DNA of 64,000 bases from Phycisphaerales bacterium (GTDB taxonomy: Bacteria > Planctomycetota > Phycisphaerae > Phycisphaerales > UBA1924), in assembly GCA_044223975.1 (NCBI GenBank), contig JBGALI010000012.1, forward strand, positions 38,422-102,421. The letters run 5' to 3'. A program made the translations under genes and the position numbers. The notes beneath the pieces were generated by a model, which had not been told where the DNA came from, searched no databases, and saw only the letters and a program-made list of their open reading frames with translations. Of the stretch, positions 17,350 to 45,936 are shown piece after piece (within the stretch, counting starts at the first letter, position 1; each line of letters begins with the position of its first letter).

Positions 17350-17357
17350 GGTCAACC

Positions 17358-18482: not shown

Positions 18483-18486
18483 CGAC

Positions 18487-21400: not shown

Positions 21401-21639
21401 CGCTCCCCATCGCCCTTGGCGTCGGCGCGGGCGCCGAAAGCCGCCGCCCGCTCGGCCTGGCGGTGGTGGGCGGCCTGCTCTTCTCGCAGCTGGTCACGCT
21501 CTACGCCACACCGGTCTTCTACCTCTGGATGGAGCGTCTGCGAACGCTGGGGTCGCGGCGCCGCGCACCAACGGCCGTGGCCTTCCAGGACGCCGCAGCC
21601 GCAGGCGCACAACCGCGCACGGCGACCGCCGCGTCGTAA
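18487..21639 (+). CDS. RND efflux transporter, HAE1 (AcrB/MexB-like) family
   Basis: 1050 aa with 12-TM AcrB architecture and a typical N-terminus (NFSETWIRRPVATTLVMLALLVFG). No outer-membrane factor gene is adjacent. Confidence 0.9.
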   Translation: MNFSETWIRRPVATTLVMLALLVFGWMSYRTLPVSDLPNVDFPTIQVTASLPGASPSTMASSVATPLEREFSTIAGIDSMSSSSLLGSTQITLQFALDRSIDAAAQDVQAAIARTANRLPPEMTSPPSYKKVNPADQPVLFLAVTSPTLPLYTIDEYAETIMSQRISTVSGVAQVVVYGSQKYAVRVQMRPEDLASKGIGIDEVAKAVESINTNQPTGVLYGDHQALTIDSNGQLMDANAYRRAIVAYRNGNPVRLEQLGRIVDSVENDKTAAWYSGQRGVILAVQRQPGTNTVAVVDAIRQLLPSFREQLPASVSIDTLYDRSVSIRASVSDVKFTLVLTLGLVVMVIFLFLRNVRATLIPSLAMPLAIVGTFAVMKVLGFSLDNLSLMALTLCVGFVVDDAIVVLENIVRHIEMGKTPMQAALEGSREIGFTVVSMTISLVAVFIPVLFMGGLLGRLLNEFAVTIAVAILLSGVVSLTLTPTMAARLLRPGREADAKHGWLFRAIESVFDATLHVYDRTLRWNLRHKSLMAVFSLAVLAGTVYLFNKVPKGFLPLEDQGRIFIQTEAAEGTSFDGMVRYQQAVADVVSKHPDVEAFMSSIGTRGGQATGINTGTLFLKLRDKPARTKSVDELIQELRPKVAEVPGVRAFMQNPPTIRIGGQLTKSQYQYTLQSPDTAELYTATPLLVDLLRKAPGFQDVTSDVQLNNPQLTVSIDRDRAATLGVTPQQVELALASSFGSRQISTIYAPNNDYQVILELEPQYQRDPSSLSLLYIRSTSGHLIPLDAVATFGRSVGPLTVNHAGQLPAVTVSFNLAPGVSLGEAVAQVERAAAEVLPATVIKSFQGSAQVFQSSIQGLGVLLLVAILVTYGVMGVLYESFIHPLTILSALPFAGFGALATLMLFHVEMSIYAFVGVIMLVGLVKKNGIMMVDFAIEVQRRESLEPIEAIHRACVVRFRPIMMTTMAALMGTLPIALGVGAGAESRRPLGLAVVGGLLFSQLVTLYATPVFYLWMERLRTLGSRRRAPTAVAFQDAAAAGAQPRTATAAS

Positions 21640-22014: not shown

Positions 22015-23763
22015 TCAGGGAGCGCTACAACGCGCCAATCCCCCACATGGAAGTGGCGCGTCGATCCTCAATCCATCTCCATGCCGCGGCATCCGCGGCC
22101 GGTTGAATTGACTCTGGAATCGCTTTCTTCCGGAACGTGCCCGGACACCGATCTCCTCCCCACTTTGGGGTTGATTCCTAGACGCATCGAAGCCTGTACC
22201 ACCCTCACAGGGCGGCCGCACAGGCCTTACGACGACATGCGACCCAGAGGCGCCGATACGACATGAAATGGAGACTTCATTTGGCCGCCCAGCCTCAAGG
22301 TCAGGCCAGGCCCGCGCACCATCGCCGTCACGCGCCGCCCCTTTTGTGCTGGAGAGCGGCGTGAGCCGCGGACAGCCCCCGGCTACCCTCCGACTGTCAC
22401 ATTTTCGGAGGGATGCAGACGGCACGGTGACACCCTGAACCAACGCCAAGAATCGGTCATAGAGGCCCTGTAGCTCAGCGGTTAGAGCAGGCGACTCATA
22501 AGCTCGTCCGGGCATTCGGACGAGAGAAGCAAGTTTCGGCGAGGACTCGCCAAGTGTTGAAGTGGCATCACCTTGCGGCGCGTTCGCTTCCGCTCCCTGC
22601 TTCTCCCTGTACCTAGATGTAGACGAGTGCTGATGCGCTTTCTGATGCGCTTCGCCCCCGGGAGCGGCGGCGGCAGCCGCGGAAAGCATTCCGCCCTTGT
22701 TCATCGCGTAGTGTTTCTGCTGGACCGTGATGCTGTGGCCGATCGCGTCTGCCGCCTCGTGCTGCGGGAACGTGTCGAGCCAATCGGTTTCGATGCTCTG
22801 CCGCAGCGATTGGAACGTCTTTGGCCATCGCTTCACGCCCGCGCGGGCCGCGGCTTCCTGGATGGTCCGGGCCATGTTGTTTGTGCTGTGCGGGATAAGG
22901 CGAGACTGTTTCTCGGGCGCGGCGTGGTAGGCGGCCTGGAGCAAAGCGAGCAGCTTTGGGAACACTGGCACTGTGCGCGTCTGTCCGGTCTTGGGCGCGT
23001 AGACGGTGATCGCGTTGGTCTTCCAGTTCATTTTGTCCCATGTCAGGATGTGGGTCTCGCTGGGCACGCGAAGCCCGGCATGTCGCGCCAACCCGAAGAG
23101 AAGCCGCCAGTCCGGACCTGGGAGTTCGTCAAGCACTTTGTCAGCATCGGCGAGGGACACGTAGTGCTTAGCCCCAGCGAGCGCCGCGGAGTCCAGCTTA
23201 CGGAACGGGTCGGCAGGGAGGATTTCAAGCTCTTTGGTGGCGACGGCAAGTAGGGCCTTCGCATTGCGGGCGTGGAGACGGATCGTCACTTCCTTCAAGC
23301 CTTCGGCCTGTAGGCTCCGGCGCCACGCTGCCGCATCGGCCGGGGTGAGCGCGTCGATGGGGGGATTGGCCGTGAAATGGTCGCGCAATCGTCTTGCCGT
23401 CTGCCGAAGCAGGCGGCGGCTTCCGGGCTTCAAGTCGGCACGCTTGTTTCGCAGCGCGATGGCGAGAAACGTAACGAGCCGGGGCGACCCTCCCTGCCAG
23501 TGCTTCGGCGCCTTGGCCTTGGCGAGTCCGGCCTTCACCATGCGGGCGTGGATCGTCTCGTCAACGCCTGCAAGCCACGCCGCTGTGGCTGGGCTCAACG
23601 CGTAGTTCGCGGCCCTGGAGCCGAGAATGTCGTCGATTCGACGCTGGTATTCCTCCGCTGTGCGATACGTGACCTTCCCAAGCCGAAGCCACTGGCGGAC
23701 TCCGGCCGGGGAGGGAAAGAAGGCAATGGCGTAGGACTTGCCGATCTTGACGATGCTGCTCAT
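22015..23763 (-). CDS. Tyrosine-type site-specific integrase. The listed ORF runs on without a stop across attL, so the real C-terminus is uncertain.
   Basis: Catalytic-domain residues in order (ARHAGLRVPSE; HSTNNMART; IGHSITVQQKHYAMN with the Tyr). The ORF continues 3' of the HY motif through the reverse complement of the tRNA fragment (YESPALTAELQG) into the chromosomal flank. Confidence 0.8.
   Translation of the reverse strand: MSSIVKIGKSYAIAFFPSPAGVRQWLRLGKVTYRTAEEYQRRIDDILGSRAANYALSPATAAWLAGVDETIHARMVKAGLAKAKAPKHWQGGSPRLVTFLAIALRNKRADLKPGSRRLLRQTARRLRDHFTANPPIDALTPADAAAWRRSLQAEGLKEVTIRLHARNAKALLAVATKELEILPADPFRKLDSAALAGAKHYVSLADADKVLDELPGPDWRLLFGLARHAGLRVPSETHILTWDKMNWKTNAITVYAPKTGQTRTVPVFPKLLALLQAAYHAAPEKQSRLIPHSTNNMARTIQEAAARAGVKRWPKTFQSLRQSIETDWLDTFPQHEAADAIGHSITVQQKHYAMNKGGMLSAAAAAAPGGEAHQKAHQHSSTSRYREKQGAEANAPQGDATSTLGESSPKLASLVRMPGRAYESPALTAELQGLYDRFLALVQGVTVPSASLRKCDSRRVAGGCPRLTPLSSTKGAARDGDGARAWPDLEAGRPNEVSISCRIGASGSHVVVRPVRPPCEGGTGFDASRNQPQSGEEIGVRARSGRKRFQSQFNRPRMPRHGDGLRIDAPLPCGGLARCSAP
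22464..22501 (+). repeat. attL: 38-nt copy of the 5' half of tRNA-Met (through the anticodon loop)
   Basis: GGCCCTGTAGCTCAGCGGTTAGAGCAGGCGACTCATAA is identical to 30386..30423. The sequence diverges immediately afterwards and no T-arm follows. Confidence 0.9.
22642..22661 (+). repeat. TGATGCGC-TTTC-TGATGCGC motif (left end of island)
   Basis: Exact 20-mer, repeated at 30333..30352 in the same orientation. Its reverse complement occurs at 26209..26228 with a CTTC spacer. Confidence 0.85.
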
Positions 23764-23978
23764 GACTTCCCCTTCCGCTTGGCGATGGCCGCGGGAAACG
23801 TGATCTTCGCCCCGAGTGCCGCGAGGATGGCGTCGGCGCTTGTGAGGCTCAAATCCCCATCCCCCCGAAGGAACCGGGCCACGCTCGTTTCAATTACTCC
23901 GCTTCGCTTGGCAACGGCGTAGCCCGTGAGCCCCTGCCGTTTCACTTCGGCGCGAATTCGGTCGGCGAGTGACTTCAT
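23760..23978 (-). CDS. XRE-family (Cro/CI-type) HTH transcriptional regulator
   Basis: 72 aa: MKSLADRIRAEVKRQGLTGYAVAKRSGVIETSVARFLRGDGDLSLTSADAILAALG. Its stop overlaps the int start (ATGA). It is divergent from alpA. Confidence 0.75.
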   Translation of the reverse strand: MKSLADRIRAEVKRQGLTGYAVAKRSGVIETSVARFLRGDGDLSLTSADAILAALGAKITFPAAIAKRKGKS

Positions 23979-24001
23979 GGCATCACGATACAAGCAACTT
24001 G

Positions 24002-24019
24002 GCACGCTGTCAAGCGTGC
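24002..24019. promoter_or_regulatory. 7-bp inverted repeat GCACGCT-GTCA-AGCGTGC in the xre/alpA divergent intergenic region (candidate operator)
   Basis: Perfect palindrome about 25 nt upstream of the xre start codon (23978) and about 125 nt upstream of alpA. Confidence 0.45.
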
Positions 24020-24142
24020 TAGTACGGACTTCCTTGCCAATCTTCCGAACTCGGCTTGGCTTTGAGTGGACAGAGCGCAAAAGGGGTCGATATTGGATGT
24101 GGACGCTGCCCTTTGCGGCTTCCTTCACTTGGAGACTGAAAC

Positions 24143-24403
24143 ATGCGAGAAGGACACGGCAGCGGCGCGGACTTGGATTCTGGCCTTTGGCTTCCCGGCG
24201 AAGCAGCGCGGTTCTTGAAGATCAGCACGCGGACGCTGTTCGCGTTAGAGAGCAAAGGAAAGGTCCGTTCGGTGCGGTTCGGCCGCAGCGTCCGCTACCA
24301 CCCGGCCGATGTGCGGGACTTTGTGTCCCAGCATCGTCGGCACGAGCCCCGCGAGCCTGTTGCTGTCCACAACTGTGGAAGCGTGGCCAGCAACAAGGGC
24401 TAA
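24143..24403 (+). CDS. AlpA/excisionase-family (MerR-like HTH_17) DNA-binding protein
   Basis: LPGEAARFLKISTRTLFALESKGKVRSVRFGRSVRYHPADVRDFV, with a GGAGA RBS 8 nt upstream of the ATG. Confidence 0.75.
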   Translation: MREGHGSGADLDSGLWLPGEAARFLKISTRTLFALESKGKVRSVRFGRSVRYHPADVRDFVSQHRRHEPREPVAVHNCGSVASNKG

Positions 24404-24415
24404 AGCGCCACGGCT

Positions 24416-25816
24416 GTGGCAAGGCGAGGGATTCAATTGAGCGAAGACAAGGCGATGGGCGCGGGAGCGGCTTCGGTTGATCGTGCGGAGCAAATCGGGC
24501 GGCTCGCTGCCGTGCTGTTTGAGCCGATGGACTGGGTAGAAGTTCGCACAGTGTGGCCAGACCGCTCGGCCGGTTCGTCGCGGTGGTGCCGAGCAAACGA
24601 GATGGCATCGGCCGAGATGGTCGACTGGATGGGGGCCCAGAACGCGCGGGGACTTGGCATCTTCTACGGCGTGAACCCTCGCAAGCGAAGTGGCGGCAGC
24701 ACGGGCGCCGATGTGGCCCTGGCACGGTGCGTGTTCGCGGACTTTGACAACGGCACCGACGTAGCGACCGCCCGCGCCAAGATTCAGGACGTGGGACTTC
24801 CCGCCGCGACGGCAATCGTCGGGAGCGGGCACGGAGTTCATGTGTACTGGCGGCTAGACGAGCCGCTTGCAGACTTGGAGCGCGCCAAGGCCATCCAGAA
24901 GGGCATCGCCGCACACGCGGGGTCGGACGCGAAAGTTTTCGACGCGCCGCGAATCCTCCGCGTCCCCGGATTCCTGAACACCAAGCTCCCACACGCTCCC
25001 GTTGTGCTCATCGAATCTGACGCGGGCAGGACCTATCCACTCGCGGAGTTTCCGGGGCATGACAAGCCCTTCTCAAAGGGCGCGAGTGCGCTTGTACCAT
25101 CAGTGCCATCGGTAGCATCGGGTGGGGATGGGACTGATGGGACTGATGGGACTGATGGGACTGATGGGACTGATGGTACAAGCCCACCCCGCTCCCTGAT
25201 GCACGATCCCCGAGTCGTGGACGCCATCGACGCATGGGCCCTCACGGCGTTCGGTCAACGGCGTGCACGACTCTGGGGCTTAGTGACTTCTCTCAAGAAC
25301 ATCCCGGGCATGGAATCTTCGACTGACATGGACCTTCAGCCTGTCGTCATGGCGTGGCTGGGCAAGAACATGGCTTTCGTCGAGTCCACAGACCCCCGCG
25401 TGACAATCGCGGACCTGGAGGAATGCGTGTCGAGATATGACCCCGCCAAGTTCAACCAGTGCATCGGGAACGCGTACGCGTGGGCCCTGACGCAACCGCC
25501 GCACCCGCTGCTGGTCGACAACATCGTTTCCGAGCGCGCGACGCTGGCAAGGATGTTCGAATTTCTCCATCGCTGGCACTCAAAGGACGGAGTGTTCTGG
25601 GCGGGACAGTCGCGACTCGCCGAGCCGTTCCGCGTATCCCAGCAACTCATGGCACTTTGGATCAAAGGGCTAATTAGGCTGGGCATTGTGAAGGTCGAAG
25701 AGAAGGGAACTCGGCGCCGCGTGGTTGATGGGAAGGTCGTGCCCGCGCGGGCCACGACGTACCGATACCTTTTGCCGATCGACAACACGGCCGCGCCCGC
25801 CGCCGCGGCGGCCTAA
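24416..25816 (+). CDS. Primase-polymerase (archaeo-eukaryotic primase superfamily) replication protein with C-terminal accessory domain
   Basis: AEP motifs in order: DFD (VFADFDNGTD), SGHGVHVYW, RVPGFLNTK. An internal (DGT)5 linker is encoded by a 9-bp tandem repeat. The start is GTG 24416 or ATG 24455. Confidence 0.75.
   Translation: MARRGIQLSEDKAMGAGAASVDRAEQIGRLAAVLFEPMDWVEVRTVWPDRSAGSSRWCRANEMASAEMVDWMGAQNARGLGIFYGVNPRKRSGGSTGADVALARCVFADFDNGTDVATARAKIQDVGLPAATAIVGSGHGVHVYWRLDEPLADLERAKAIQKGIAAHAGSDAKVFDAPRILRVPGFLNTKLPHAPVVLIESDAGRTYPLAEFPGHDKPFSKGASALVPSVPSVASGGDGTDGTDGTDGTDGTDGTSPPRSLMHDPRVVDAIDAWALTAFGQRRARLWGLVTSLKNIPGMESSTDMDLQPVVMAWLGKNMAFVESTDPRVTIADLEECVSRYDPAKFNQCIGNAYAWALTQPPHPLLVDNIVSERATLARMFEFLHRWHSKDGVFWAGQSRLAEPFRVSQQLMALWIKGLIRLGIVKVEEKGTRRRVVDGKVVPARATTYRYLLPIDNTAAPAAAAA
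25127..25180 (+). repeat. 9-bp tandem repeat (GATGGGACT x5, plus one degenerate copy) inside the primase-polymerase gene
   Basis: Perfect head-to-tail copies at 25127, 25136, 25145, 25154 and 25163, with a sixth copy GATGGTACA. It stays in frame and encodes GDGTDGTDGTDGTDGTDGT. Confidence 0.9.
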
Positions 25817-26082
25817 GTGCCCACGCCATCGCATCAGGTGTCCCGGCGGACGAATCCCGCCACGCCATGCCGTGTATTGCCCTAACGAAACCACAGGAAG
25901 TCGCAAGAAGAAGGGGAACGATTCCTGGCTTGCCACGGCCCGGGCCGGAGCGATGGCGATGGCCATTGCCTCTAGGGGTCTGGCACTTGCGAGCAAGTCA
26001 AGCGGTCAGCACCGGTCCAGACAGACGCGTCGGTTGCTATGCAGGGTCTCTTCACCTTGCCCGCGGCGTTGCCGGTGCCACG

Positions 26083-26720
26083 CGTCCACAGTTGTGGATG
26101 TTTCGACGGTCGAAACATTCACCCGACGACCCATAGTCTCCTGTCACGCTCCCAGAATGCGGCCGCACGACCCCGTCAACGCTGTTTCCTCTCGTCCCCG
26201 AGTCGGCGGCGCATCACTTCGCGCATCACTCGCGGGAGCTTCCACCCCCATCCCGTGCGCCATTCCATGCGCCATGCGAGCGTAAACCACTGTGAATCAA
26301 GGCCCGACACTCGGCTAGGCTGGCCGCGTGCGTGCGCGTGGCGTTGCTGGGCGTTGGTGGGCGTGGTGGTGGCCGTGGCCACGGCGCCCGCGTTGCGTGG
26401 TCCTGGCCGTGCTGGCCGTGGCCGTGGCGCCGCGAGCCCGGGACGATGGTGGTGGAACACGCGCGCCGTCGCGTGCGTCGGCGCGGGCGCGGGCGACCCC
26501 CACGGGGGGAAGCGGCTCGGCGACCATCTATCAACGAGCCCTCGCAATTTTCTGCAACAAAAGCACAAGGGGTCGACTTGAAATCGACTATCGACGGGTA
26601 CGCTGCTTCCGCGCCGCACTCTCCGCAGTTGTGGACGCAATGTTTCGACCGTCGAAACACTGCCGCCCCTTTGCAATCGTCATCGTCCGTCGGCAATGTT
26701 TCGGCGTCGAAACATTGCCC
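26083..26720. promoter_or_regulatory. Putative replication origin / protein-binding region: three copies of a 20-28-bp palindrome (ATGTTTCGAC-N-GTCGAAACAT) plus short direct repeats and a G-rich tract
   Basis: Palindromes at 26098..26118, 26638..26663 and 26693..26720. The first two share the leader CAGTTGTGGA. GCGCATCA-CTTC-GCGCATCA lies at 26209..26228. No convincing ORF covers about 1 kb downstream of the primase-polymerase gene. Confidence 0.6.
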
Positions 26721-26923
26721 CCCACCCGCTCCCCTTGCCTTGGCCGCCGGTCGTCGCTTCGCCTCGAAGATCGGCGGCCTTGCTCGTTCCTTTCCGCTGC
26801 GCGACTTGGCCCTAAGCGGGCGCCGCGTGGCGTCGTCTTCGTCGCTTCCGCGCCAGCGTGCTGCCCTTGCTGGCGCGGAAGTTTTTCCCCTTTCACGTCG
26901 GCATCGGCCGACACGGAGTCACA

Positions 26924-27112
26924 ATGTCCGAGACGAATACCGCAAAGCCGTTCACGTCCGCCGCGGAGCGCGATGCCGCGTTCAGAAGCCCAAAGTACGC
27001 GCCTGAGCGGCCCAACGGATCGGGTCCCAATCCGCAGCACGACGCTGCGTATCGGGCCGAAGTCCTGGCACGCATGGCCGCCACGGAAGCCACCGGGAGG
27101 AAGCTCTCTTGA
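26924..27112 (+). CDS. Hypothetical protein (62 aa)
   Basis: ATG behind a GGAG RBS. Its stop overlaps the TTG start of the next ORF (TTGA). Confidence 0.4.
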   Translation: MSETNTAKPFTSAAERDAAFRSPKYAPERPNGSGPNPQHDAAYRAEVLARMAATEATGRKLS

Positions 27113-27636
27113 ACGAACCCACCACCACCACCACCACCTCCCCCGTTTCCCCTGGAGACCTTGCAATCGCTCTCCGGGATCGCCATCGCTCGGGCCTGGT
27201 CGAAGCACTCAAGACCTACAGGGCCGCTGCCGCCGCGGGCGACGTTACTGCGATGGCCAAGTCCGCGGACCAACTCGGACTGACTGACGATGAGATCGTG
27301 AGCGACGCCACGGCGTTGGCGACGGTGTCTGAACTTGACGCATCCATTGCGGGCTTTGCCACCGACTTGGCAAATCTGCGCGACGCTGCCGACATGGACC
27401 GTGAAGACGCTGCTTTGGCGGAGCAGATGGCCATCGCCACCCGCCCGATGGCAGAGAAGCGCGCGGCGATTGCGACGGAGCGGGCCAAGATCGCCAAGTT
27501 GAAGGAAGAGACGAACGGGCTTGAAGAGGCCCTGCGGAGCGCCCGCCGCGGTTCACCCCGACTCTTCGAACCCGACATCACACTCGCCGCGGCCCGCAGC
27601 ACGCCCCTCGGTGCGGCCTACTTCGAACGGAGCTGA
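27109..27636 (+). CDS. Hypothetical protein (175 aa, poly-Thr N-terminus, predicted helical/coiled-coil)
   Basis: TTG start behind a GGGAGGAAG RBS, with coherent non-repetitive sequence after TTTTTT. It is translationally coupled to the upstream ORF. Confidence 0.5.
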   Translation: MNEPTTTTTTSPVSPGDLAIALRDRHRSGLVEALKTYRAAAAAGDVTAMAKSADQLGLTDDEIVSDATALATVSELDASIAGFATDLANLRDAADMDREDAALAEQMAIATRPMAEKRAAIATERAKIAKLKEETNGLEEALRSARRGSPRLFEPDITLAAARSTPLGAAYFERS

Positions 27637-27643
27637 AATCTAC

Positions 27644-28000
27644 ATGACCAAGAACACCAAGCCCCCGCCCACCCAACGCGCGCGGATGCTCGAACTTTTC
27701 AACCGTCTGGTTGACCTACTCCTGACGCTGCTTCGCCGCGGCCGTCCGATGGTCGGCCCCGACGGCGCGATCATGGTCGACGCCAACGGTAAGGCGATTT
27801 ACAAGGACATCGGCGCGGCTGATATGGCCGTGTGCGTGTCGCTGCTTCGCCTGGCTGGCCTTCGGGCCACGCTCAATGCGCCGCAGACAGAGCTTGCCGC
27901 GATGATGGAACGCGCCAGAGCGGCCGGGTGGCGCTCGCCCGAGTCGGTGCCCCCGGCCGCGGCGGACGGCGCCGGGGAGGACGACGATGCCGAGGACTGA
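27644..28000 (+). CDS. Hypothetical protein (118 aa)
   Basis: ATG at 27644. The stop overlaps the start of the next gene. Confidence 0.45.
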   Translation: MTKNTKPPPTQRARMLELFNRLVDLLLTLLRRGRPMVGPDGAIMVDANGKAIYKDIGAADMAVCVSLLRLAGLRATLNAPQTELAAMMERARAAGWRSPESVPPAAADGAGEDDDAED

Positions 28001-28385
28001 CCTTCCGCGCGATCATCGCAAGCCGATCCCTCCCGAAAATCGGCTCCTGCTCGATGCCGACCACGTCGCACGCTTGCTCTCTGTCAGTCGCTACACCATC
28101 TTGGCGTGGCGGAAGCAAGGACTCATGCCCCAGCCCGTCGAGTTCTCCGCTGGCACCGTTTTGTGGAGAGTCCGCGAGATCGAGGCTTGGGTGGTGGCCT
28201 CGTGCCCCGCCATGGCCGATTGGACCTGGCGTCCCACGGTTTCGGCGCGACTTGACGCCTACATCCGTTGTCAGTCCCGGGAGATCAAGGACATGCAAGA
28301 ATCCCTGGACGCGGCACTCCGCGCGAAGGCCGCAGGCGCGACGACGATCCCGGTCTCGCTCGCTCCCGACTCGCCCACTCTGTAA
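27987..28385 (+). CDS. Second AlpA/excisionase-family HTH protein
   Basis: DADHVARLLSVSRYTILAWRKQGLMPQPVEFSAGTVLWRVREIEAWV matches the AlpA-type winged-helix pattern. Confidence 0.65.
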   Translation: MPRTDLPRDHRKPIPPENRLLLDADHVARLLSVSRYTILAWRKQGLMPQPVEFSAGTVLWRVREIEAWVVASCPAMADWTWRPTVSARLDAYIRCQSREIKDMQESLDAALRAKAAGATTIPVSLAPDSPTL

Positions 28386-28437
28386 TTGCCGCGGCGGCCT
28401 GTTCGCCTACTGGCCTTCTACATCGCCGCGTTCGCAT

Positions 28438-28475
28438 TTGCCCCGCCCTGGCGAAAGCCGGGGGCGGGGTTTTTC
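28438..28475 (+). terminator. Rho-independent terminator
   Basis: GCCCCGCCC - loop - GGGGCGGGG followed by TTTTT, immediately after the second alpA-like gene. Confidence 0.7.
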
Positions 28476-28560
28476 GGTTGTGTCCCTTGGTGTCCGCATA
28501 TTGCTGGTTGTTCGGACTTGTGATCCGTGGTAGCCTGCGCCCTTTGGGGGGGCACGCAAA

Positions 28561-28794
28561 ATGAACGCGAAGAACGTCGGAGCCTACTTGGCCGTGGGTG
28601 GCGGCGCGCTCTTGTACCTTGCTTTCGTCGGCTCGCTCGTGACGGGCTGTGGCTGGGTGCTGTTCTACTCCGAATGGCACTGGTTCGCCAAGGTGATGGC
28701 CGCGATCATCCTGTTGCCGTTCCTGCCCCACGCGATTGGCTTGCTGGTGACCCTCGTTACGCTGGCAGGCAGCATCGGAAAGCGACCGGGCTAG
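28561..28794 (+). CDS. Small membrane protein (77 aa, two predicted TM helices)
   Basis: Hydrophobic segments LAVGGGALLYLAFVGSLV and VMAAIILLPFLPHAIGLLVTLVTLA. Confidence 0.45.
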   Translation: MNAKNVGAYLAVGGGALLYLAFVGSLVTGCGWVLFYSEWHWFAKVMAAIILLPFLPHAIGLLVTLVTLAGSIGKRPG

Positions 28795-29348
28795 TGCGGG
28801 CCCGCGTGGTCATTGGGCGCCGCCGTCAACCGTTCCACCAAAGATTTCGGCTCGGGCGCTGGATCGCAATACTCCACACCCCAAGTAGCGATGGTCAAAT
28901 CTTTGCCGCGGTAGACCAGAATCTCGCGCTTCCGGCTGAAAACCCACAGGCTCACGGCGCCGCCCTGGCGAAGCAGCTGACTCATGAACGCCGATCCCTG
29001 AGCGCTAAGCACAAACTCGGCGCAATCGTTCGTCTCAATGGCGTCCGCGCGCCCGTGGATGTGCATCCCATACTGTTGAACGACGCCATTCGTTGACACC
29101 CCGCGCATCACGGCACGAGGTTCTGGAATCGGGTTGTTGCCCGTGTTGGTGGCAATCGCGCGAATTGTCCGTTCGCCACCTTCTTCGTGCATGGCAATTT
29201 GAACGCTGACGCGGAGCCGCTTCGCCTCTTGTTCGCGTTGTTTGTCCCGCCGCTCAATGCCAAATTCGATGGCCCGCAACACGGCGAGACTTCCAGAAAT
29301 GACCGTACCCGTCAAGCCGAGATAGAAGGCGGCATCATCCATGGGCAA
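28791..29348 (-). CDS. Hypothetical protein with an N-terminal TM helix (185 aa); candidate island cargo
   Basis: N-terminus AAFYLGLTGTVISGSLAVLRAI. The remainder is soluble and I recognise no family. Confidence 0.45.
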   Translation of the reverse strand: MPMDDAAFYLGLTGTVISGSLAVLRAIEFGIERRDKQREQEAKRLRVSVQIAMHEEGGERTIRAIATNTGNNPIPEPRAVMRGVSTNGVVQQYGMHIHGRADAIETNDCAEFVLSAQGSAFMSQLLRQGGAVSLWVFSRKREILVYRGKDLTIATWGVEYCDPAPEPKSLVERLTAAPNDHAGPH

Positions 29349-29387
29349 TGCTAGTTGCTCTGGAATCGCTGCGGCAGAGCGTTCGGT

Positions 29388-29960
29388 TCACTCCTGCCGC
29401 ACTCGTGCCCCACCCTGCCGCCCCCATGCCACCCTAAGCACTTGCACCGCCTGAACCACCTGCCGTGCCGTGCAACCGAGCGAAGCCGCTGCGTGGGCTG
29501 TACCGCCTGTGCGTACCACCATCGCCACACGCTCGGCCGTGGTCTCGCTGGCAATGCCCAGCACACTCGCCACGCTCGCGCTCGTGTCCCTTGCCCGCTC
29601 GTGCGGCTCGCGCTGGCCCAGTTGCTCGGGCGGTTCGCGGTGCTGGCTCCGGCGCCGACTCGCGCCACGCTCGCGGTGCCAGTTGTCCAGCACGCGGCGC
29701 CGCGCGTTGCGAGCCACGCACCTGGCGAAGTCGTCCCCGTCGAATCGGTCGGCGATGGCATTGCACACGAGCCACGCCTCGCCGAAGTGCTCGGCCGCGG
29801 CCGTGCCCGTGGCCTTGCCGACTTGCCGCGCTATCGACTCGGCCAGCGCGAGCACTTCGGCCCGCGTGACTTGGCCCGTGGCCATGGTCTCTCCCCTTGC
29901 CCCTGAATGGCCCGTGGCACGCTCTCGCACGCCCGGGCCGTTGGATGGTCGGTCAATCAC
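29388..29960 (-). CDS. Sigma-70 family (ECF-like) sigma factor
   Basis: Region-2-like DFARCVARNARRRVLDNWHRE (compare F..W...IARN...D..RR) and region-4-like AERVAMVVRTGGTAHAAASLGCTARQVVQAV. The start is probably ATG near 29884; the frame is ambiguous by 1 nt in my reading. Confidence 0.5.
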   Translation of the reverse strand: MIDRPSNGPGVRERATGHSGARGETMATGQVTRAEVLALAESIARQVGKATGTAAAEHFGEAWLVCNAIADRFDGDDFARCVARNARRRVLDNWHRERGASRRRSQHREPPEQLGQREPHERARDTSASVASVLGIASETTAERVAMVVRTGGTAHAAASLGCTARQVVQAVQVLRVAWGRQGGARVRQE

Positions 29961-30163
29961 GCGAAGGCAAGGCGGCCCCCTGGCGTGACACGGGCGCGGT
30001 ACGTCGCTACGACGGCGTCGCGCTCGCGGAGCGTGACGGTCCGGCCGTCGATGTTGACGACGAAGAACCCCCCTTGCCCGTGATGAGCGACGGCAGCGTT
30101 AGCGATGGTGGAATCGCGGAACGATGCGAGGGCGCGGCGCGTGGTGGACTTGGACATGTTCAA
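29957..30163 (-). CDS. Hypothetical small protein (68 aa), first gene of the minus-strand cargo operon
   Basis: ATG start. Its stop overlaps the sigma-factor start. Confidence 0.35.
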   Translation of the reverse strand: MNMSKSTTRRALASFRDSTIANAAVAHHGQGGFFVVNIDGRTVTLRERDAVVATYRARVTPGGRLAFA

Positions 30164-30332
30164 AGCCTTTCTGGTCCGGCGAGTGTGAGTGATGCCGAGC
30201 CCGTGCCGGTGCCGGGTCGGCGGACGGTCATTGAGCAGCGATGGCGAGTATCCGGGCGCGGGTCTCCGGGGGGAGGCTCGGCCATGCCTCGGCTACCCTT
30301 CGGAGTTCAGGGTCTTGGAGTGCCGTGAGAAG

Positions 30333-30352
30333 TGATGCGCTTTCTGATGCGC
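30333..30352 (+). repeat. TGATGCGC-TTTC-TGATGCGC motif (right end of island, 33 nt from the tRNA junction)
   Basis: Identical to 22642..22661. Confidence 0.85.
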
Positions 30353-30385
30353 CTTCCCGCGACAATCCGAGAAACTGGGCAAAAA

Positions 30386-30458
30386 GGCCCTGTAGCTCAG
30401 CGGTTAGAGCAGGCGACTCATAATCGCTTGGTCCCGGGTTCGAATCCCGGCGGGGCCA
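30386..30458 (+). tRNA. tRNA-Met (anticodon CAT; elongator-type or tRNA-Ile2/lysidine not distinguishable)
   Basis: GGCCCTG/TA/GCTC-AGCGGTTA-GAGC/A/GGCGA-CTCATAA-TCGCT/TGGTC/CCGGG-TTCGAAT-CCCGG/CGGGGCC/A. Confidence 0.9.
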
Positions 30459-30985
30459 TTCGGCACAGAAGCGCACCGACGCGCAAGCCCTAGCACGGGC
30501 GACGGTTGCGGGATCGGGCCAAATCCGACCGAATGCGCCCGACCAAGCGATTGCAGCGCCGTGCGCTATCGTGCGCGGCGGTGCTGCAGCGCAATTTGCA
30601 GCGTGCTGCTGTCGCAGCGTTTGCGACAGCAGTCAAGTCCGCACGGCGCGTGGTGACGGCAGGCGTTCGGCAACGCACGCCTGTTGAACTCATTCCGAAC
30701 GGCTCGCACGTATACAATGTCGCGTTCGCACAGTTCGGGAGAAGAGCGATGCTCAATATCCTGACTCTTGAACTCCCTTGTCCGGTCGGCTCGTCCTTGC
30801 CCAAGCACAAGGCCGAGGGGCAGCCGCTCCCGCCGCCCTAGCGGAACCTCCCGCAACTGCAGACCTGACGCGGCCAGAATCCACATTCTGAGTACCCAAC
30901 GGTGACCTCGCAGGAGTTCACGCGCGCGGACTGTCCCCACGGAGATGCCGCGCGCTCGCATACCCACCGTGCGCCGAGACATTCC

Positions 30986-33016
30986 ATGATGTTCATTCTC
31001 CAGAATCTTCTTCTTTCCACCCTGGCCGCGATCGGCCTCTTCTTCGCGATTGTCCTGCTCGTCGGCTTCCGGCGCGTGCCCAACAACGGCGCCGGCATTG
31101 TCGAGAAGCGATTCACCTTCAAGGGCTCGATCCCCGGCGGCTTCATGGCGCTCAACGGAGAAGCCGGCTTCCAGCCCGAACTCCTCCGCGGCGGTCTCCA
31201 CTGGCTCATGCCCGTGCAGTACCGCGTCCACATCGTGCCGCTGGTGACGATCCCGCAGAACAAGGTCGGCTATGTCTTCGCCCGCGACGGCCGGCCCCTT
31301 GAGCCGACCCAAGCCCTTGCCTCCAACATCGAGGCCCGCTCCTACGAAGACGTCCGCGCCTTCCTCGCCGCCGACGGCCAGCGCGGCCCGCAGCGTCAGA
31401 TCCTGCGCGAAGGCACCTACGCCATCAACCTCGCCCAGTTCGTCGTCATCACCGAGGGCAAGACCTACTACCTCCCGCTCTCGCGCGACGAGCGCACCGT
31501 GTTCGACGAAATGGCCGGGCTCATCGAGGACCGCGCGGGCTTTGATCCCATCGTCATCCGCGGCGAGAACGATCTGGTCGGCGTCGTCACCGTCCACGAC
31601 GGACCCGCGCTCGCCCAAGGGGAAATCATCGCGCCGATCGTCGGCGACCCCGCGCGCCCCGACGCCTCCCACAACAACTTCCAGGACGCCGAGAAATTCC
31701 TCGCCGCCGGCGGGCGCCGCGGCCGCCAGCTCCAGGTCCTCGTCGACGGCACCTACTACGTCAACCGCCTCTTCGCCACCGTCGAGTTCATCCCCAAGAC
31801 CGTCGTCGAGGTCGGCTACGTCGGCGTCGTCGTCTCCTACACCGGCGAAAAGGGCGCGGACCTCTCCGGCTCCGAGTACTCCCACGGCGAACTGGTCAAG
31901 CAGGGCCAGCGCGGCGTGTGGAGCGAGGCCCTCCTCCCCGGCAAGTACGCTTTCAACACCTACGCGGGGAAGGTCATCCAGGTGCCCACCACCAACTTCC
32001 TCCTCAAGTGGGTCGGCGGCGAGGTCGGCGAGCACCGCTTCGACGAGCACCTCGCCGAGGTCTCCCTCATCACCAAGGACGCCTTCGAGCCCAGCCTGCC
32101 GCTGAGCGTGGTCGTGCACATCGACTACCGCAAGGCCCCGCTGGTGATCCAGCGCTTCGGCGACATCCAGCGTCTGGTCGAGCAGACCCTCGACCCCATG
32201 GTTTCGGCCTACTTCAAGAACGTCGCCCAGACCCGCACGCTCATCCAGCTCCTCCAGGACCGCAGCGCCATCCAGGACCAGGCCCGCACCGAGATGCGCG
32301 AACGCTTCGCACGCTACAACCTCGAGCTCGAGGAGGTCCTCATCGGCACGCCCAAGAGCGGCGCCTCCGCCAAGGGCGGCGACCAGCGCCTCGAGCAGAT
32401 CCTCGAACAGCTCCGCGCCCGGCAGGTTGCCGAGGAGCGCATCATGACCTACGCCCAGCAGGAGAAGGCCGCCAAGCAGGAGCGCGAGCTGCGCCAGGCC
32501 GAGGCCGTCGCGGCCCAGCAGTCCAAGCTCACCGAATCAGAGGTCTCGATCGCGATCCAGACCAACCAGGGCCGCGCCGAATACCAGCGCTCGCTTCAGG
32601 AGGCCGCGCGCGTCAAGGCCATGGCCGAGGCCGAGGCCAGCAAGGTCCGAATGCTCGCGGAGGCCGAGGCCGAGAAGGCCGCGCGCGTCGGTATTGGACA
32701 GGCGATGGCGGTCGAAGAGCAGGTCCGCGCCTACGGCGGCCCCGTGTATCAGCTCACGCAGCAGGTACTGAACCGCTTCGCGCAGGCCATCGAGCAGTCG
32801 GGCGCCGACGTGGTTCCCAAGATCGTGATGGGCGGTGGCCCCGGCGGTGGCGGCAACATGATGGAGTCGCTGCTTGCCATGCTGCTCTCCGAGCGCATGC
32901 TCCAGATGACAGCGAGTTCGTCGCCCCCGGGTGCCGAGGTCGCGGCGATCAAGGGGCAACTTCTCGAGGGAATACGAGCGACTCCGAAGGCGAACGGTTC
33001 GCCGGTACCTACCTGA
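30986..33016 (+). CDS. SPFH/band-7 (flotillin-like) membrane protein with long C-terminal coiled-coil
   Basis: N-terminal TM (MMFILQNLLLSTLAAIGLFFAIVLLVGF) followed by an SPFH-like region. The C-terminal Ala/Glu/Gln-rich repeats (EAVAAQQSKLTESEVSIAIQ...KAMAEAEASKVRMLAEAEAEKAAR) are typical of flotillins. Confidence 0.7.
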   Translation: MMFILQNLLLSTLAAIGLFFAIVLLVGFRRVPNNGAGIVEKRFTFKGSIPGGFMALNGEAGFQPELLRGGLHWLMPVQYRVHIVPLVTIPQNKVGYVFARDGRPLEPTQALASNIEARSYEDVRAFLAADGQRGPQRQILREGTYAINLAQFVVITEGKTYYLPLSRDERTVFDEMAGLIEDRAGFDPIVIRGENDLVGVVTVHDGPALAQGEIIAPIVGDPARPDASHNNFQDAEKFLAAGGRRGRQLQVLVDGTYYVNRLFATVEFIPKTVVEVGYVGVVVSYTGEKGADLSGSEYSHGELVKQGQRGVWSEALLPGKYAFNTYAGKVIQVPTTNFLLKWVGGEVGEHRFDEHLAEVSLITKDAFEPSLPLSVVVHIDYRKAPLVIQRFGDIQRLVEQTLDPMVSAYFKNVAQTRTLIQLLQDRSAIQDQARTEMRERFARYNLELEEVLIGTPKSGASAKGGDQRLEQILEQLRARQVAEERIMTYAQQEKAAKQERELRQAEAVAAQQSKLTESEVSIAIQTNQGRAEYQRSLQEAARVKAMAEAEASKVRMLAEAEAEKAARVGIGQAMAVEEQVRAYGGPVYQLTQQVLNRFAQAIEQSGADVVPKIVMGGGPGGGGNMMESLLAMLLSERMLQMTASSSPPGAEVAAIKGQLLEGIRATPKANGSPVPT

Positions 33017-33559
33017 CCGGATCGCTACGGGGTCGAGAGGCCCCGTGGCGATTTGACAACGCGGGCGCGCATGGCCCCTCAACCACCCTTCGCCCCCGAG
33101 GGGTGGATGCAACGGTTCATCTCCCACGACCGGCGCTACGCCGACCTGTACGGCGAGACTTTCCGCCGCGCCGGGCGCCTGGCGCGGGGCACCCTGCCCC
33201 GGCGGGGTGGCCGATGACGCCCATCGTCTGTGTCGCCGGTCTGTACCACCAGACGTCCGAGCTTGGCCCTTGCTCTTGGAAGCTGGCGCCCGAGCCCACG
33301 CCCGACTCGACACGTGCGGTGAAGCTGCTGGGCCAGCTGCTGACGTACACGAGGGAGTACCAGCGCACGACCGGCGATCTGTACCCCGAGAAGAACAGCG
33401 AGTTCCGCCTCGCGACGAACGAAACGTCAGCGCGTGACCGTCGGGGCTCGCTGAGGCGCAATCCCTGCCCGCCTCGTCTCCCTCTGCCCCACCGCCTTCC
33501 TCGGTGCCCGCTGTGCCTCTGTGGTGAAATCCCTCTTCCTTTCTTAGGTCCCCTTCCCC

Positions 33560-34120
33560 CGCGCCGATCGAACTCTCAGTGCCCCCCGCCCGCCGATCGA
33601 CGGCTCGGGCAGCAGCGCTCATCGTCGTGGGCGCCAGCCACACCCGCCCCCACATCGCCTCCACCACCGCCACGGGCTCGATGTCGTCCAAGTACCGAAT
33701 CGTCGTCAGGATCGACCGGTGCCCCAGCTGCTTACTGATGATCCCGACATCTATGCCCTCGGCCCGGAGCCGGGCGGCGTGGGTGTGCCGCAGCCCGTGC
33801 GCATACACGCGCTTGGCGATCCCAGCCCGGCCACTCAGCCTGCGTAGCAGCCGCCGTACGTACCCGGTGCAGACCGCCTCGCCCGACGCCGTACAAAGGG
33901 GCGGCCCCGCTTGGCCCACGTTGGCCCGGGTTCGCTCCTCCAGCCACCGGCCCACCACGCACGCCCCGACGTCCTGGCCCACGGTGCGGCTGACGTCGCC
34001 CTTGCCGTGTAACACCCGCACGACGCCCGTCGCCAAATCCAAATCTCTGGGTGACAGGGCGAGCGCCTCGCTGACCCGGACCCCGGCCCGTGCATGGGCC
34101 GTCCTCCGAGGGGGCAGCAT
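33560..34120 (-). pseudogene. Tyrosine recombinase remnant (catalytic domain only; N-terminal core-binding domain absent)
   Basis: RVSEALALSPRDL (box I Arg), YAHGLRHTHAARL (H-x-x-R) and HRSILTTIRYL (Tyr), with no upstream N-terminal domain in any frame. The listed ORF runs far past the domain. Confidence 0.6.
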
Positions 34121-34232
34121 CGCCCGGGCTCGTTCCGCGAACCAATTCGCTACCCATCCGTTTTGTTACCTCCGGGGGCGGTCAAGGATCAAGGGCGGTT
34201 GTGCCGGCGCCGCGGGCTGCTAGGCTGCGGTC

Positions 34233-35459: not shown

Positions 35460-35839
35460 AGCGGCATCACCGTGCCGGTCGCTGCATCAACCAAGTGGCC
35501 CAACACCTCGCTGATCCGGAGACTTGCCCAGCACGTCAGCGCAAACGGCGCCCAATGGGAACGCCGATGGGGTGGAGAGGTTCGCGAGAGAGGCCGACGA
35601 GCGCCCACACCGGGGGTCCGACGGCATCTCAGAAGAGAGCCGGGGCGCGGATGCCTTGGCGCGCTGGTGACACGATCTGCTGTAACAGCGGGCCGCCTGC
35701 GCGCTCCCCTCGCAAAAGCTGGGTCTCGCTCCGCGGATCACGGCGCTACCTGGGGCTATCGCTCTGGGGGGTGTGCAGAGAGCCATGCTCGCGCACGCCG
35801 ATTTCGGGGATAAACGGTACAACTATTTGAATATTCATC

Positions 35840-38162: not shown

Positions 38163-40484
<2,322 letters not shown>

Positions 40485-40492
40485 GAGATTCC

Positions 40493-41910: not shown

Positions 41911-41952
41911 TTCGTCGCGGCAGGGCAATCCGGCGCCCGAGGACGGAGGAGC

Positions 41953-45802: not shown

Positions 45803-45936
45803 CCTTGAATTCGGAGGAGGACCTCCCCACTGGACATCGTGCGGACAGCCGCCCCCGTGCCGTGGCGTGGTGGGCGCCAGCCGCTCGTCGTTCGGGTTCA
45901 CTAGAGTTGGTGGCGGACGCGCGTCCGACACTCCGA

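What the first reader, a model, noticed from the sequence alone, without database searches (positions are those of the whole stretch)
26083..26720. Three copies of a long perfect palindrome (ATGTTTCGAC-N-GTCGAAACAT) in an ORF-free kilobase downstream of the primase-polymerase: putative origin
Copies lie at 26098..26118 (10-bp arms, 1-nt spacer), 26638..26663 (13-bp arms, 1 mismatch) and 26693..26720 (12-bp perfect arms). The first two are preceded by the same CAGTTGTGGA leader. Between them lie a tandem GCGCATCA pair, a CCATGCG pair and a long G-rich GTGG/GCCGTGGCC tract. In PICIs and plasmids the origin with iterons sits immediately 3' of the pri/rep gene; this arrangement fits that expectation.
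Basis: seen in the sequence. Interest (0 to 1): 0.6.

Follow-up and report, generated by a model that had tools for sequence, protein, structure and literature searches.

The report
Likely replication origin of small island
A non-coding kilobase behind a primase gene, inside a 7.9-kb mobile island inserted in a tRNA-Met gene, carries three copies of one long palindrome and is most likely the island's replication origin, an ordinary kind of feature that remains unproven here.

Summary
Three copies of (GCA)ATGTTTCGAC-N-GTCGAAACAT(TGC) lie at 26098-26118, 26637-26663 and 26692-26719. The half-site occurs nowhere else in the 64 kb, and the full palindrome has no related match in the public collections scanned.

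The 1.1-kb region (25817-26923) shows no coding signal and no homologue. It lies in a 7.9-kb integrative element bounded by a 38-nt perfect repeat of the 5' half of tRNA-Met. The element encodes an integrase, an XRE regulator, two AlpA-like proteins and a helicase-less AEP primase-polymerase with a C-terminal winged helix.

The AT-richest 60 nt of the element (26525-26584) sits between palindrome 1 and palindromes 2 and 3, next to an ~80% GC block. That resembles a PICI-type origin, so origin is my best reading (about 0.45).

Three things count against it:
- The sites are dyads, not direct iterons.
- Six relatives of the primase place xre-int directly behind it, with no gap.
- No relative shares the motif.

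Operator, RNA-leader and transfer-site readings remain open.

Two further motifs were missed. TCCACA-N2-TGTGGA also occurs just upstream of the primase gene. The GCGCATCA pair also flanks both att sites.

Verdict: a new member of a known kind, of modest interest.

The parts
26098..26118 (.). Palindrome M1 copy 1: ATGTTTCGAC G GTCGAAACAT (10-bp perfect arms; 14-nt arms at 93% over 26094-26122).
   Evidence: (I16)
26637..26663 (.). Palindrome M1 copy 2: GCAATGTTTCGAC C GTCGAAACACTGC (13-bp arms, one mismatch).
   Evidence: (I25)
26692..26719 (.). Palindrome M1 copy 3: GGCAATGTTTCG GCGT CGAAACATTGCC (12-bp perfect arms; central base missing). Its centre lies 55.5 bp from that of copy 2.
   Evidence: (I24)
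26085..26098 (.). Second palindrome M2 (TCCACA GT TGTGGA), abutting M1 copy 1.
26622..26635 (.). M2 copy (TCCGCA GT TGTGGA, one mismatch), 4 nt before M1 copy 2.
24366..24379 (.). Third M2 copy (TCCACA AC TGTGGA), inside the 3' end of alpA and 76 bp upstream of the primase ATG. M2 occurs only three times in the 64 kb, at this site and the two gap sites.
26209..26228 (-). The same pair occurs near both att sites.
   Evidence: 3 hits; 0.14 expected
22631..22650 (+). TGATGCGC-N4-TGATGCGC pair, 130 bp inside attL and within the int 3' tail. Candidate integrase arm-type (or RDF) site.
   Evidence: (D16)
30333..30352 (+). TGATGCGC-N4-TGATGCGC pair, 34 bp before the attR core. Candidate arm-type site.
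   Evidence: (D16)
26300..26500 (.). GC-rich block (76-86% GC) with GCCGTGGCC/GTGG repeats.
   Evidence: (D1, D9)
26525..26584 (.). AT-richest 60 nt of the whole 8-kb element (45% GC). Candidate DNA-unwinding element.
26742..26779 (+). Hairpin followed by a T-rich stretch.
   Evidence: (I15)
26845..26890 (+). Strong terminator-like hairpin (13-bp perfect stem) plus a TTTTT run. It ends 34 nt before the next gene's ATG.
   Evidence: I14; z -6.6
24455..25816 (+). Primase-polymerase, 453 aa: AEP domain (about residues 10-205), (GTD)n linker, helical domain, C-terminal winged helix. No helicase domain.
24143..24403 (+). AlpA/HTH_17-like small protein (86 aa), first gene of the rightward operon.
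23760..23978 (-). XRE-type HTH protein (72 aa). Its stop overlaps the int start (ATGA).
22015..23763 (-). Tyrosine integrase ORF. The catalytic domain ends near residue 390, and the tail reads through the arm-site pair and the att core.
22464..22501 (+). attL core: a 38-nt perfect copy of the 5' half of tRNA-Met.
   Evidence: (D5)
30386..30458 (+). Intact tRNA-Met(CAT). Its first 38 nt (30386-30423) form the attR core.
26924..27112 (+). First gene after the gap (62 aa, GGAG ribosome-binding site). It starts a run of small orphan genes.

Best explanation
The non-coding kilobase 25817-26923 is the cis-acting replication origin, plus adjacent control region, of a 7.9-kb satellite-like integrative element (22464-30423) inserted in tRNA-Met.

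Shown:
- The element's boundaries and its gene set: int, xre, two alpA-like genes and a helicase-less AEP primase-polymerase.
- The primase's confidently modelled C-terminal winged helix.
- The non-coding nature of the gap.
- Three private copies of a 21-27-bp dyad (M1), two of them abutted by a second dyad (M2).
- The position of the element's AT-richest stretch between the M2+M1 unit on the left and the M2+M1+M1 cluster on the right, next to an ~80% GC block.

Inferred:
1. After excision, dimers of the primase-polymerase bind the dyads through the winged helix.
2. The third M2 copy, upstream of the primase gene, would give Rep-type autoregulation.
3. The bound sites bracket and help melt 26525-26584.
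4. A helicase is borrowed from the host or from a helper phage or plasmid, because the element encodes none.
5. The AEP domain lays the first primers. It may do so on M1 hairpins extruded on either strand, in the manner of the RepB' ssiA/ssiB signals.
6. The two hairpins at 26742-26890 stop rightward transcription from running out of the origin into the downstream operon.
For: 1. Location and coding status. The gap begins at the primase stop codon. It shows no frame-specific GC bias. It has no Rfam match, no Pfam hit for its largest minus-strand ORF, no translated similarity to related loci and no DNA match in plasmids or phages.

2. The sites are specific. The M1 half-site occurs only here in 64 kb. 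M1 copies are the only long perfect palindromes in the window. The full palindrome has 0 exact hits in 185,579 species genomes and in viral contigs, and only 2 unrelated hits in metagenomes.

3. Origin-like layout. The AT-richest 60 nt of the element is 26525-26584. It is flanked by an ~80% GC block and by the repeat sets. PICI origins lie immediately 3' of pri/rep, with two sets of repeats flanking an AT-rich region (PMC6092414).

5. Precedents for hairpin or dyad origins served by AEP primases. The pRN1 origin is a stem-loop 3' of its prim-pol gene (PMC4234260). RepB' primes on ssiA/ssiB, which have a hairpin at nt 7-27 (PMC8567376). Here M1 is 21 nt, and copies 2 and 3 can also pair into a long stem-loop (z -5.5).

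6. M2 is shared between the gap and the region just upstream of the primase gene, as Rep operators are in iteron plasmids (my own knowledge).
Against: - No experiment has been done, and no comparative support exists. None of 94 related loci carries M1.
- Six relatives with the same full-length primase have xre-int directly behind it and no long gap anywhere in the contigs available.
- The sites are dyads and few (1+2), not arrays of direct iterons.
- Dyads of this size are classic operators for dimeric HTH proteins, and the element encodes at least three other HTH proteins.
- No helicase, DnaA box or Rep-type domain was found.
- Spacing is asymmetric. Copy 1 is about 400 bp from the AT-rich stretch.
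- A strong terminator-like hairpin only 34 nt before the next gene suggests a transcribed leader. In that case the palindromes could act at the RNA or transcriptional level.
- The genome-wide frequency of M1 could be tested only in 64 kb.
Confidence: 0.45

Rival explanations
1. The M1 (and/or M2) dyads are operators for a dimeric transcription factor of the element. Candidates are one of the AlpA-like proteins, an orphan small protein, or the primase's own winged helix acting only as a repressor. The factor would control promoters inside the gap that drive the 26924 operon or a non-coding transcript. Copy 1 would serve as a distal looping operator. The gap would then be a regulatory region, and the origin would lie elsewhere or be absent.
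For: - Perfect two-fold symmetry and a 21-27-bp size are typical of HTH-dimer operators.
- The element encodes XRE, two HTH_17 proteins and a weak sigma/HTH-like protein.
- Two sites sit within 285 bp upstream of the next operon, with a third 542 bp away. This is an operator-plus-auxiliary-operator geometry.
- Relatives manage without any such gap behind the primase.
- An 8/12 sigma-70-like match overlaps copy 1 (TCGAAA-16-CATAGT, my own reading).
Against: - No promoter-like site at the scan's threshold lies in the gap.
- The likely XRE operator is a different dyad, GCACGCT-N4-AGCGTGC at 24002-24019, overlapping the leftward -35.
- No M1 half-site exists in the divergent promoter region, where a master repressor would be expected to act.
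- Two hairpins, one with a T-run, lie between the dyads and the operon start.
- A kilobase of non-coding DNA with a GC-rich/AT-rich pair is more than operators need.
Confidence: 0.25
2. The palindromes act in RNA. A rightward transcript through the gap folds into M1 hairpins, or into the long copy-2/copy-3 stem. Together with the terminator hairpins at 26742-26890, this forms a leader or attenuator, or a small regulatory RNA, that gates expression of the downstream operon. The loose comparison is to termination-based immunity of satellite phage P4.
For: - A strong plus-strand terminator-like hairpin with a U-run ends 34 nt before the ATG at 26924. That leaves no room for a promoter after it.
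- The 26500-26900 RNA folds far better than shuffles (z -5.6).
- Repeated self-complementary segments could pair in cis or in trans.
Against: - There is no Rfam match.
- The fold z-score follows trivially from the palindromes.
- Copy 1 is 540 nt upstream of the others.
- Perfect DNA dyads whose outer flanks are conserved between copies (GCAAT...ATTGC) suggest protein recognition of duplex DNA rather than an RNA stem.
- No relatives are available for a covariation test.
Confidence: 0.1
3. The region is a cis site for transfer or packaging rather than for replication. It could be an oriT mimic, a pac/cos-like site or a centromere recognised by proteins of a helper conjugative element or phage. 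The primase would serve only after transfer.
For: - The element is too small to move by itself. It has no relaxase, terminase or capsid genes.
- One relative has a NikA-like relaxosome accessory gene behind the primase.
- RepB'-family primases are sometimes fused to relaxases (PMC5862659).
- The outer 6 bp of each M1 arm equal those of the chromosomal parS consensus TGTTTCAC|GTGAAACA (my own knowledge).
Against: - M1 has three extra central bases compared with parS, and no canonical parS or ParB is present.
- No nic-like or cos-like feature could be recognised.
- Three copies of one dyad spread over 620 bp is not a typical oriT.
Confidence: 0.08
4. The gap is decaying filler left by the rearrangement that moved xre-int away from the primase gene. 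On this reading the repeats have no current function.
For: - In six relatives xre-int occupies exactly this position.
- A third copy of the att-arm motif TGATGCGC-N4-TGATGCGC lies in the gap and could be a relic.
Against: - No residual similarity to int or xre, or to any relative's genes, remains in the gap.
- Three near-identical long perfect dyads and three M2 copies would not survive or arise by decay.
Confidence: 0.05

Closest known systems
PICI (phage-inducible chromosomal island) pri-rep-ori module, e.g. EcCICFT073 and the SaPIs
   Same: - Divergent layout: int and a small repressor-like gene leftward; alpA/xis then the primase rightward.
- Non-coding origin candidate immediately 3' of the replication gene.
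- Repeat sets on both sides of an AT-rich stretch (PMC6092414).
   Different: - PICI Rep is, or is paired with, a helicase that binds direct iterons. Here there is no helicase, and the repeats are dyads (1+2 copies).
- No capsid, terS or interference genes were recognised.
- Phage induction is unknown.
- The layout is not conserved in the primase's relatives.
PICMI (phage-inducible chromosomal minimalist islands of Vibrionaceae)
   Same: - A very small element (PICMI115 has six genes) built on int, a gene overlapping int by ATGA, alpA and a primase, plus a few orphan genes (PMC10803314).
- Here xre and int also overlap by ATGA.
   Different: - PICMIs integrate next to fis in Vibrionaceae. This element sits in tRNA-Met of a 68% GC organism whose primase relatives are labelled Planctomycetota or Phycisphaerae.
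- No sequence relationship was tested or claimed.
- The passages of PMC10803314 I read describe no mapped PICMI origin.
IncQ/RSF1010 oriV with RepB' primase and ssiA/ssiB
   Same: - An AEP primase with a weak RepB_primase Pfam match.
- Hairpin-forming priming signals with a hairpin at nt 7-27 on both strands (PMC8567376).
- A GC-rich segment next to an AT-rich segment (the IncQ detail is from my own memory).
   Different: - IncQ needs a separate RepC iteron-binder and RepA helicase, plus direct 20-bp iterons. None of these is present here.
- Similarity to RepB' itself is marginal (E about 0.008).
- The ssi sites are two distinct 40-nt sequences, not three copies of a perfect dyad.
pRN1-type origin (stem-loop 3' of the orf904 prim-pol gene)
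   Same: - Origin candidate downstream of a prim-pol gene with a C-terminal winged helix.
- A structure-prone sequence and a nearby terminator (PMC4234260).
   Different: - ORF904 also has an SF3 helicase.
- The pRN1 origin is one ~100-nt stem-loop about 54 bp after the stop codon.
- It is an archaeal plasmid family.
Phage lambda ori / O protein
   Same: The initiator's winged-helix dimer binds repeated sites that are themselves dyad-symmetric and lie next to an AT-rich region (my own knowledge). AEP+PriCT+O-like fusions are described in PMC5862659.
   Different: - Lambda has four closely phased sites inside the O gene.
- No O-domain (PF04492) match was found here.

Membership tests
PICI-type pri-rep-ori origin | Origin lies immediately 3' of the replication initiator gene in non-coding DNA. 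| tested here: met
   The gap 25817-26923 starts at the primase stop codon. It has no coding signal and no homologues.
PICI-type pri-rep-ori origin | Two sets of iterons flank an AT-rich melting region. | tested here: inconclusive
   M2+M1 lies at 26085-26118, and M2+M1+M1 at 26622-26719. They bracket the AT-richest 60 nt, 26525-26584. However, the repeats are dyads, number only 1+2, and the left set is about 400 bp away.
PICI-type pri-rep-ori origin | The initiator has a helicase (Rep) function with origin specificity. | tested here: not met
   No helicase or P-loop domain appears in Pfam, PHROGs or NCBIfam. The C-terminal half is a helical domain plus a winged helix.
PICI-type pri-rep-ori origin | The rep-ori fragment drives autonomous replication. 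| not testable with these tools
   This needs cloning and a permissive host.
PICI/PICMI-like satellite (element level) | Small island with specific att sites, int plus a small regulator leftward, and alpA plus a primase rightward. | tested here: met
   38-nt perfect att repeats. The genes are assigned. xre and int overlap by ATGA.
PICI/PICMI-like satellite (element level) | Induction, packaging and transfer by a helper phage; for PICMI, integration next to fis. | not testable with these tools
   No helper is known. The integration site is tRNA-Met, not fis, so it is not a PICMI in the strict sense.
IncQ oriV (RepB'/ssiA-ssiB) | RepB'-family primase. | tested here: inconclusive
   PF16793 scores 24.8 bits against a cut-off of 24.3. 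RepB' structures match at E 0.007-0.009 only, and the closer match is the 6zp9 PrimPol AEP domain.
IncQ oriV (RepB'/ssiA-ssiB) | Separate RepC iteron-binding initiator, RepA helicase and direct iterons. | tested here: not met
   No such proteins were found among the element's ORFs. There is no array of direct repeats in the gap.
IncQ oriV (RepB'/ssiA-ssiB) | Hairpin-containing single-strand initiation signals on both strands, used by the primase. | not testable with these tools
   M1 would give the same 21-nt hairpin on either strand. Priming must be assayed on ssDNA templates.
REP/MITE-type dispersed palindromic repeat | Many copies dispersed through intergenic regions of the genome. | tested here: not met
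   All six half-sites in the 64 kb lie within 26098-26719. There are 0 exact hits in species genomes and viral contigs, and 2 unrelated hits in metagenomes. The rest of this genome could not be searched.
parS/ParB centromere | A 16-bp dyad close to TGTTTCACGTGAAACA, with a cognate ParB. | tested here: not met
   M1 shares only the outer TGTTTC/GAAACA and has 3 extra central bases. No parS is found at up to 3 mismatches in the window. No ParB-like hit occurs in the element.
HTH-repressor operator | A dyad-symmetric site overlapping or adjoining a promoter it controls. | tested here: inconclusive
   Dyad symmetry is met. No promoter-like site at the scan threshold lies in the gap, but the host's promoter type is unknown.
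AEP primase with C-terminal winged helix (Kazlauskas et al. 2018 architectures) | An AEP catalytic domain, then a helical PriCT-like domain, then a WH domain. | tested here: met

The most novel reading that the evidence does not exclude
The M1 dyads are not duplex binding sites. They are strand-symmetric single-strand initiation hairpins for a helicase-less AEP primase, a self-contained analogue of IncQ ssiA/ssiB in which one palindrome serves both strands. The origin is also wired to excision. The tandem motif found on both att arms, presumably bound by the integrase or its directionality factor, recurs inside the origin, and M2 links the origin to the primase promoter region. Replication would then be licensed only in the excised circle. 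This would define the replicon of an uncharacterised family of minimal alpA-primpol-xre-int islands.
Probability: 0.1. Interest if true: 0.6.

Novelty: new member of a known kind. Interest (0 to 1): 0.3.

Why it matters
If confirmed, this would give a cis/trans pair (primase-WH plus a ~1-kb origin) for a family of very small integrative elements. These elements are known only from metagenomes, and their primase relatives are labelled Planctomycetota or Phycisphaerae, a group with few genetic tools. It could therefore seed a shuttle replicon. It would also add a case of a helicase-less AEP primase acting as initiator on dyad sites. For mobile-element specialists it would be an expected result rather than a surprise.

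Tried and rejected
- Exact-pattern scans for the full palindrome: genome contigs 0 hits, viral contigs 0 hits. Metagenome contigs gave 2 hits in unrelated, much lower-GC contigs.
- A relaxed pattern, TGTTTCG-N4-5-CGAAACA, gave only single chance hits per viral contig.
- The search for related loci with the single primase protein found nothing in genomes.
- With an alignment it found 80 viral loci. Nearly all match the N-terminal AEP domain only; one (L040) extends to about residue 306.
- The first two word-index protein searches were swamped, probably by the (GTD)n linker. Removing the linker recovered the family.
- The gap gave no Rfam family, no blastn match to plasmids or phages, and no tblastx or tblastn relic of int, xre or relatives' genes.
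- DnaA boxes: none at up to 1 mismatch in the gap. M2 is at best a 7/9 match, so I rejected DnaA boxes as evidence.
- TCGAC pentamers in 26566-26596 are not enriched beyond chance.
- parS resemblance was rejected.
- A tyrosine-recombinase core-site reading of M1 (7-bp arms, 7-bp overlap) was considered and dropped. The overlap would itself be palindromic, and the real att core is elsewhere.
- A search for a conserved palindrome at the alpA-primase junction in relatives found one case only, L087.
- Host identity could not be obtained. The proteins are singletons without names, and the lookup for the record name failed.

Full report
**Observation**

- Copy 1 is ATGTTTCGAC-G-GTCGAAACAT at 26098-26118.
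- Copy 2 is GCAATGTTTCGAC-C-GTCGAAACACTGC at 26637-26663, with one mismatch.
- Copy 3 is GGCAATGTTTCG-GCGT-CGAAACATTGCC at 26692-26719. It has 12-bp perfect arms and lacks the central base.

Copies 2 and 3 share GCAAT on the left, and copies 1 and 3 share ATT on the right. The full site is therefore probably a 25-27-bp dyad.

The half-site at up to 1 mismatch hits nine times in 64 kb. Six of those hits are these half-sites, and no shuffle reached nine. Copies 1 and 3 are the only perfect palindromes in the whole window with arms of at least 10 bp.

The leader CAGTTGTGGA, the GCGCATCA pair, the CCATGCG pair and the G-rich tract are all present.

'ORF-free' is loose. Seven mechanical ORFs of 156-319 aa overlap the region, and one was even called as a gene in a public assembly. 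Their GC content is flat over the three codon positions, whereas every real gene of the element has low GC2 and high GC3. None has a family or a homologue.

**Context**

The window's GC content drops from about 0.69 to about 0.64 at roughly 22 kb.

A 38-nt perfect direct repeat, 22464-22501 and 30386-30423, equals the 5' half of an intact tRNA-Met(CAT) gene at 30386-30458. The repeat ends in the anticodon loop. Between the repeat copies lies a 7.9-kb element with these genes:
- A tyrosine integrase (minus strand, starting at 23763).
- A 72-aa XRE-type HTH protein whose stop overlaps the int start by ATGA.
- A divergent promoter region.
- An 86-aa HTH_17/AlpA-like gene (24143-24403).
- The primase-polymerase (24455-25816).
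- The 1.1-kb gap.
- A run of small orphan genes, one of which is a second AlpA-like protein.

Nothing resembling capsid, terminase, relaxase, helicase or defence genes was found.

This is the layout described for PICIs (PMC6092414). In its small size and its ATGA-overlapping int partner it also resembles PICMIs (PMC10803314).

**The protein**

The primase has an N-terminal AEP domain, supported by four results:
- A marginal PF16793 match.
- PHROG primase families.
- The 6zp9 PrimPol AEP domain at E 5e-15, against RepB' at only about 0.008.
- 6,920 relatives of this domain in an exhaustive search.

A sub-family of 400-480-aa proteins shares this full architecture. Kazlauskas et al. proposed that such WH domains recruit the primase to origins (PMC5862659).

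**Features of the gap that fit an origin**

- The AT-richest 60 nt of the entire element is 26525-26584 (45% GC).
- It directly follows an ~80% GC block at 26300-26500.
- It directly precedes the right-hand repeat cluster. Palindrome 1 lies on the other side.
- PICI origins have two repeat sets flanking an AT-rich region immediately 3' of the replication gene (PMC6092414).
- AEP primases are known to start at structure-prone DNA. The pRN1 origin is a stem-loop 3' of its prim-pol gene (PMC4234260). RepB' primes on ssiA/ssiB, whose hairpin spans nt 7-27 (PMC8567376).
- M1 is a 21-nt dyad that would form the same hairpin on either strand. Copies 2 and 3 can also pair into one long stem.

- The 'leader' is itself a dyad, TCCACA-N2-TGTGGA (M2). 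It occurs only three times in 64 kb. Two copies abut M1 copies 1 and 2. The third lies at 24366-24379, in the 3' end of alpA and 76 bp before the primase ATG. A site shared between an initiator's own upstream region and its origin is the classic Rep autoregulation pattern. That pattern is my own knowledge, and its application here is inference.
- The 'GCGCATCA pair' is TGATGCGC-N4-TGATGCGC. The same tandem pair lies 130 bp inside attL and 34 bp before attR (0.14 expected by chance). That placement marks it as a likely integrase arm-type or directionality-factor site. Its third, inverted copy in the gap is unexplained. It could couple excision proteins to the region, or it could be a relic.

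**What argues against the origin reading**

- The comparative test failed. No related locus carries M1, and no public collection holds a related copy.
- Six independent relatives of the full-length primase (L087, L088-091, L092/093, L095, L096) all show alpA-primase-xre-int in one direction. There is no gap behind the primase and no long non-coding stretch in the contigs available. Their int and xre are homologous to the window's.
- The window's element is therefore a rearranged member of this family. 'Origin 3' of the primase' is not a family trait.
- The repeats are dyads, which suit dimeric repressors as well as initiators.
- A strong terminator-like hairpin with a T-run ends only 34 nt before the next gene. 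This suggests a transcribed leader.
- No helicase and no convincing DnaA box are present.

**Weighing the readings**

| Reading | Probability |
|---|---|
| Replication origin plus control region | about 0.45 |
| Operators for a transcription factor | about 0.25 |
| RNA-leader role | about 0.10 |
| Transfer, packaging or centromere site | about 0.08 |
| Functionless relic | about 0.05 |

The remainder is unassigned.

REP-type repeats are excluded as far as 64 kb and the public scans allow. The parS resemblance, limited to the outer TGTTTC/GAAACA, fails on spacing and on the absence of ParB.

**Novelty and verdict**

The element belongs to an uncharacterised family of minimal alpA-primpol-xre-int islands seen only in metagenomes. 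Some more distant primase relatives (primase-helicase fusions and shorter proteins) are labelled Planctomycetota or Phycisphaerae.

The putative origin is a new member of a known kind, a satellite- or plasmid-type origin next to its initiator-primase. It uses dyad rather than direct repeats. It is a reasonable and testable annotation, not a surprise. I score interest at 0.3.

Noticed in passing
window 22464-22501, 30386-30458, 49603-49648: One tRNA-Met gene carries two islands in tandem. The 7.9-kb element replaced its 5' half, which is unusual because most tRNA-targeting elements restore the 3' half. The tRNA's upstream region is now element DNA. A ~19-kb lower-GC island (30460-49648) is bounded by a 91% copy of the tRNA's 3' half. 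It carries SPFH, a hybrid histidine kinase, an HD-GYP-like response regulator, SDR and PAP2 genes, and no integrase was recognised in it.
   Followed up: partly
window 22015-23763 (minus strand): The integrase ORF continues about 110-200 codons past the catalytic tyrosine region, through the TGATGCGC pair (encoding HQKAHQH) and through the att core. Its C-terminal tail therefore differs between the integrated form (582 aa) and the excised form (485 aa). This recalls integration-dependent control of Int stability, but it may be a chance open frame in GC-rich DNA.
   Followed up: partly
window 25118-25179: A 9-bp tandem repeat (GATGGGACT, 5-6 copies) encodes the (GTD)n linker between the AEP domain and the C-terminal domains of the primase. 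A public short-read assembly of the same sequence breaks exactly here (L003/L004). The low-complexity linker probably also swamped the word-index protein searches.
   Followed up: yes
window 24002-24019: A single-copy dyad, GCACGCT-GTCA-AGCGTGC, overlaps the TTGACA -35 of the leftward promoter-like site in the xre/alpA divergent region. It is the likely XRE operator, and it is distinct from M1 and M2.
   Followed up: partly
L087, L088-L091, L092/L093, L095, L096 (metagenomic contigs): A conserved four-gene module runs in one direction: HTH_17/alpA, then a 394-473-aa AEP primase with winged helix, then a small XRE HTH, then a tyrosine integrase. It defines a family of very small integrative elements. 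In L088 the whole island appears to be only about 5 kb, next to RND efflux genes.
   Followed up: partly
L094:944-1332: In one relative the non-coding stretch just upstream of the primase gene holds a cluster of TTGCAA(C) motifs. They include the dyad GGTTGCAATC-AAG-GATTGCAACC and two further direct copies. This is a private repeat set adjacent to the primase gene, analogous to but unrelated in sequence to M1.
   Followed up: no
window 27987-28385: A second HTH_17/AlpA-like protein (132 aa) lies in the rightward operon. It is homologous to an uncalled ORF upstream of the primase in L094 (tblastx, 38% over 69 aa). Either AlpA-like protein could be the true excisionase.
   Followed up: no
window 17118-21639 and 50201-54804: Paralogous RND efflux operons (membrane-fusion protein plus AcrB-family pump) flank the two islands on both sides. 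A MarR gene lies at 49705-50163.
   Followed up: no
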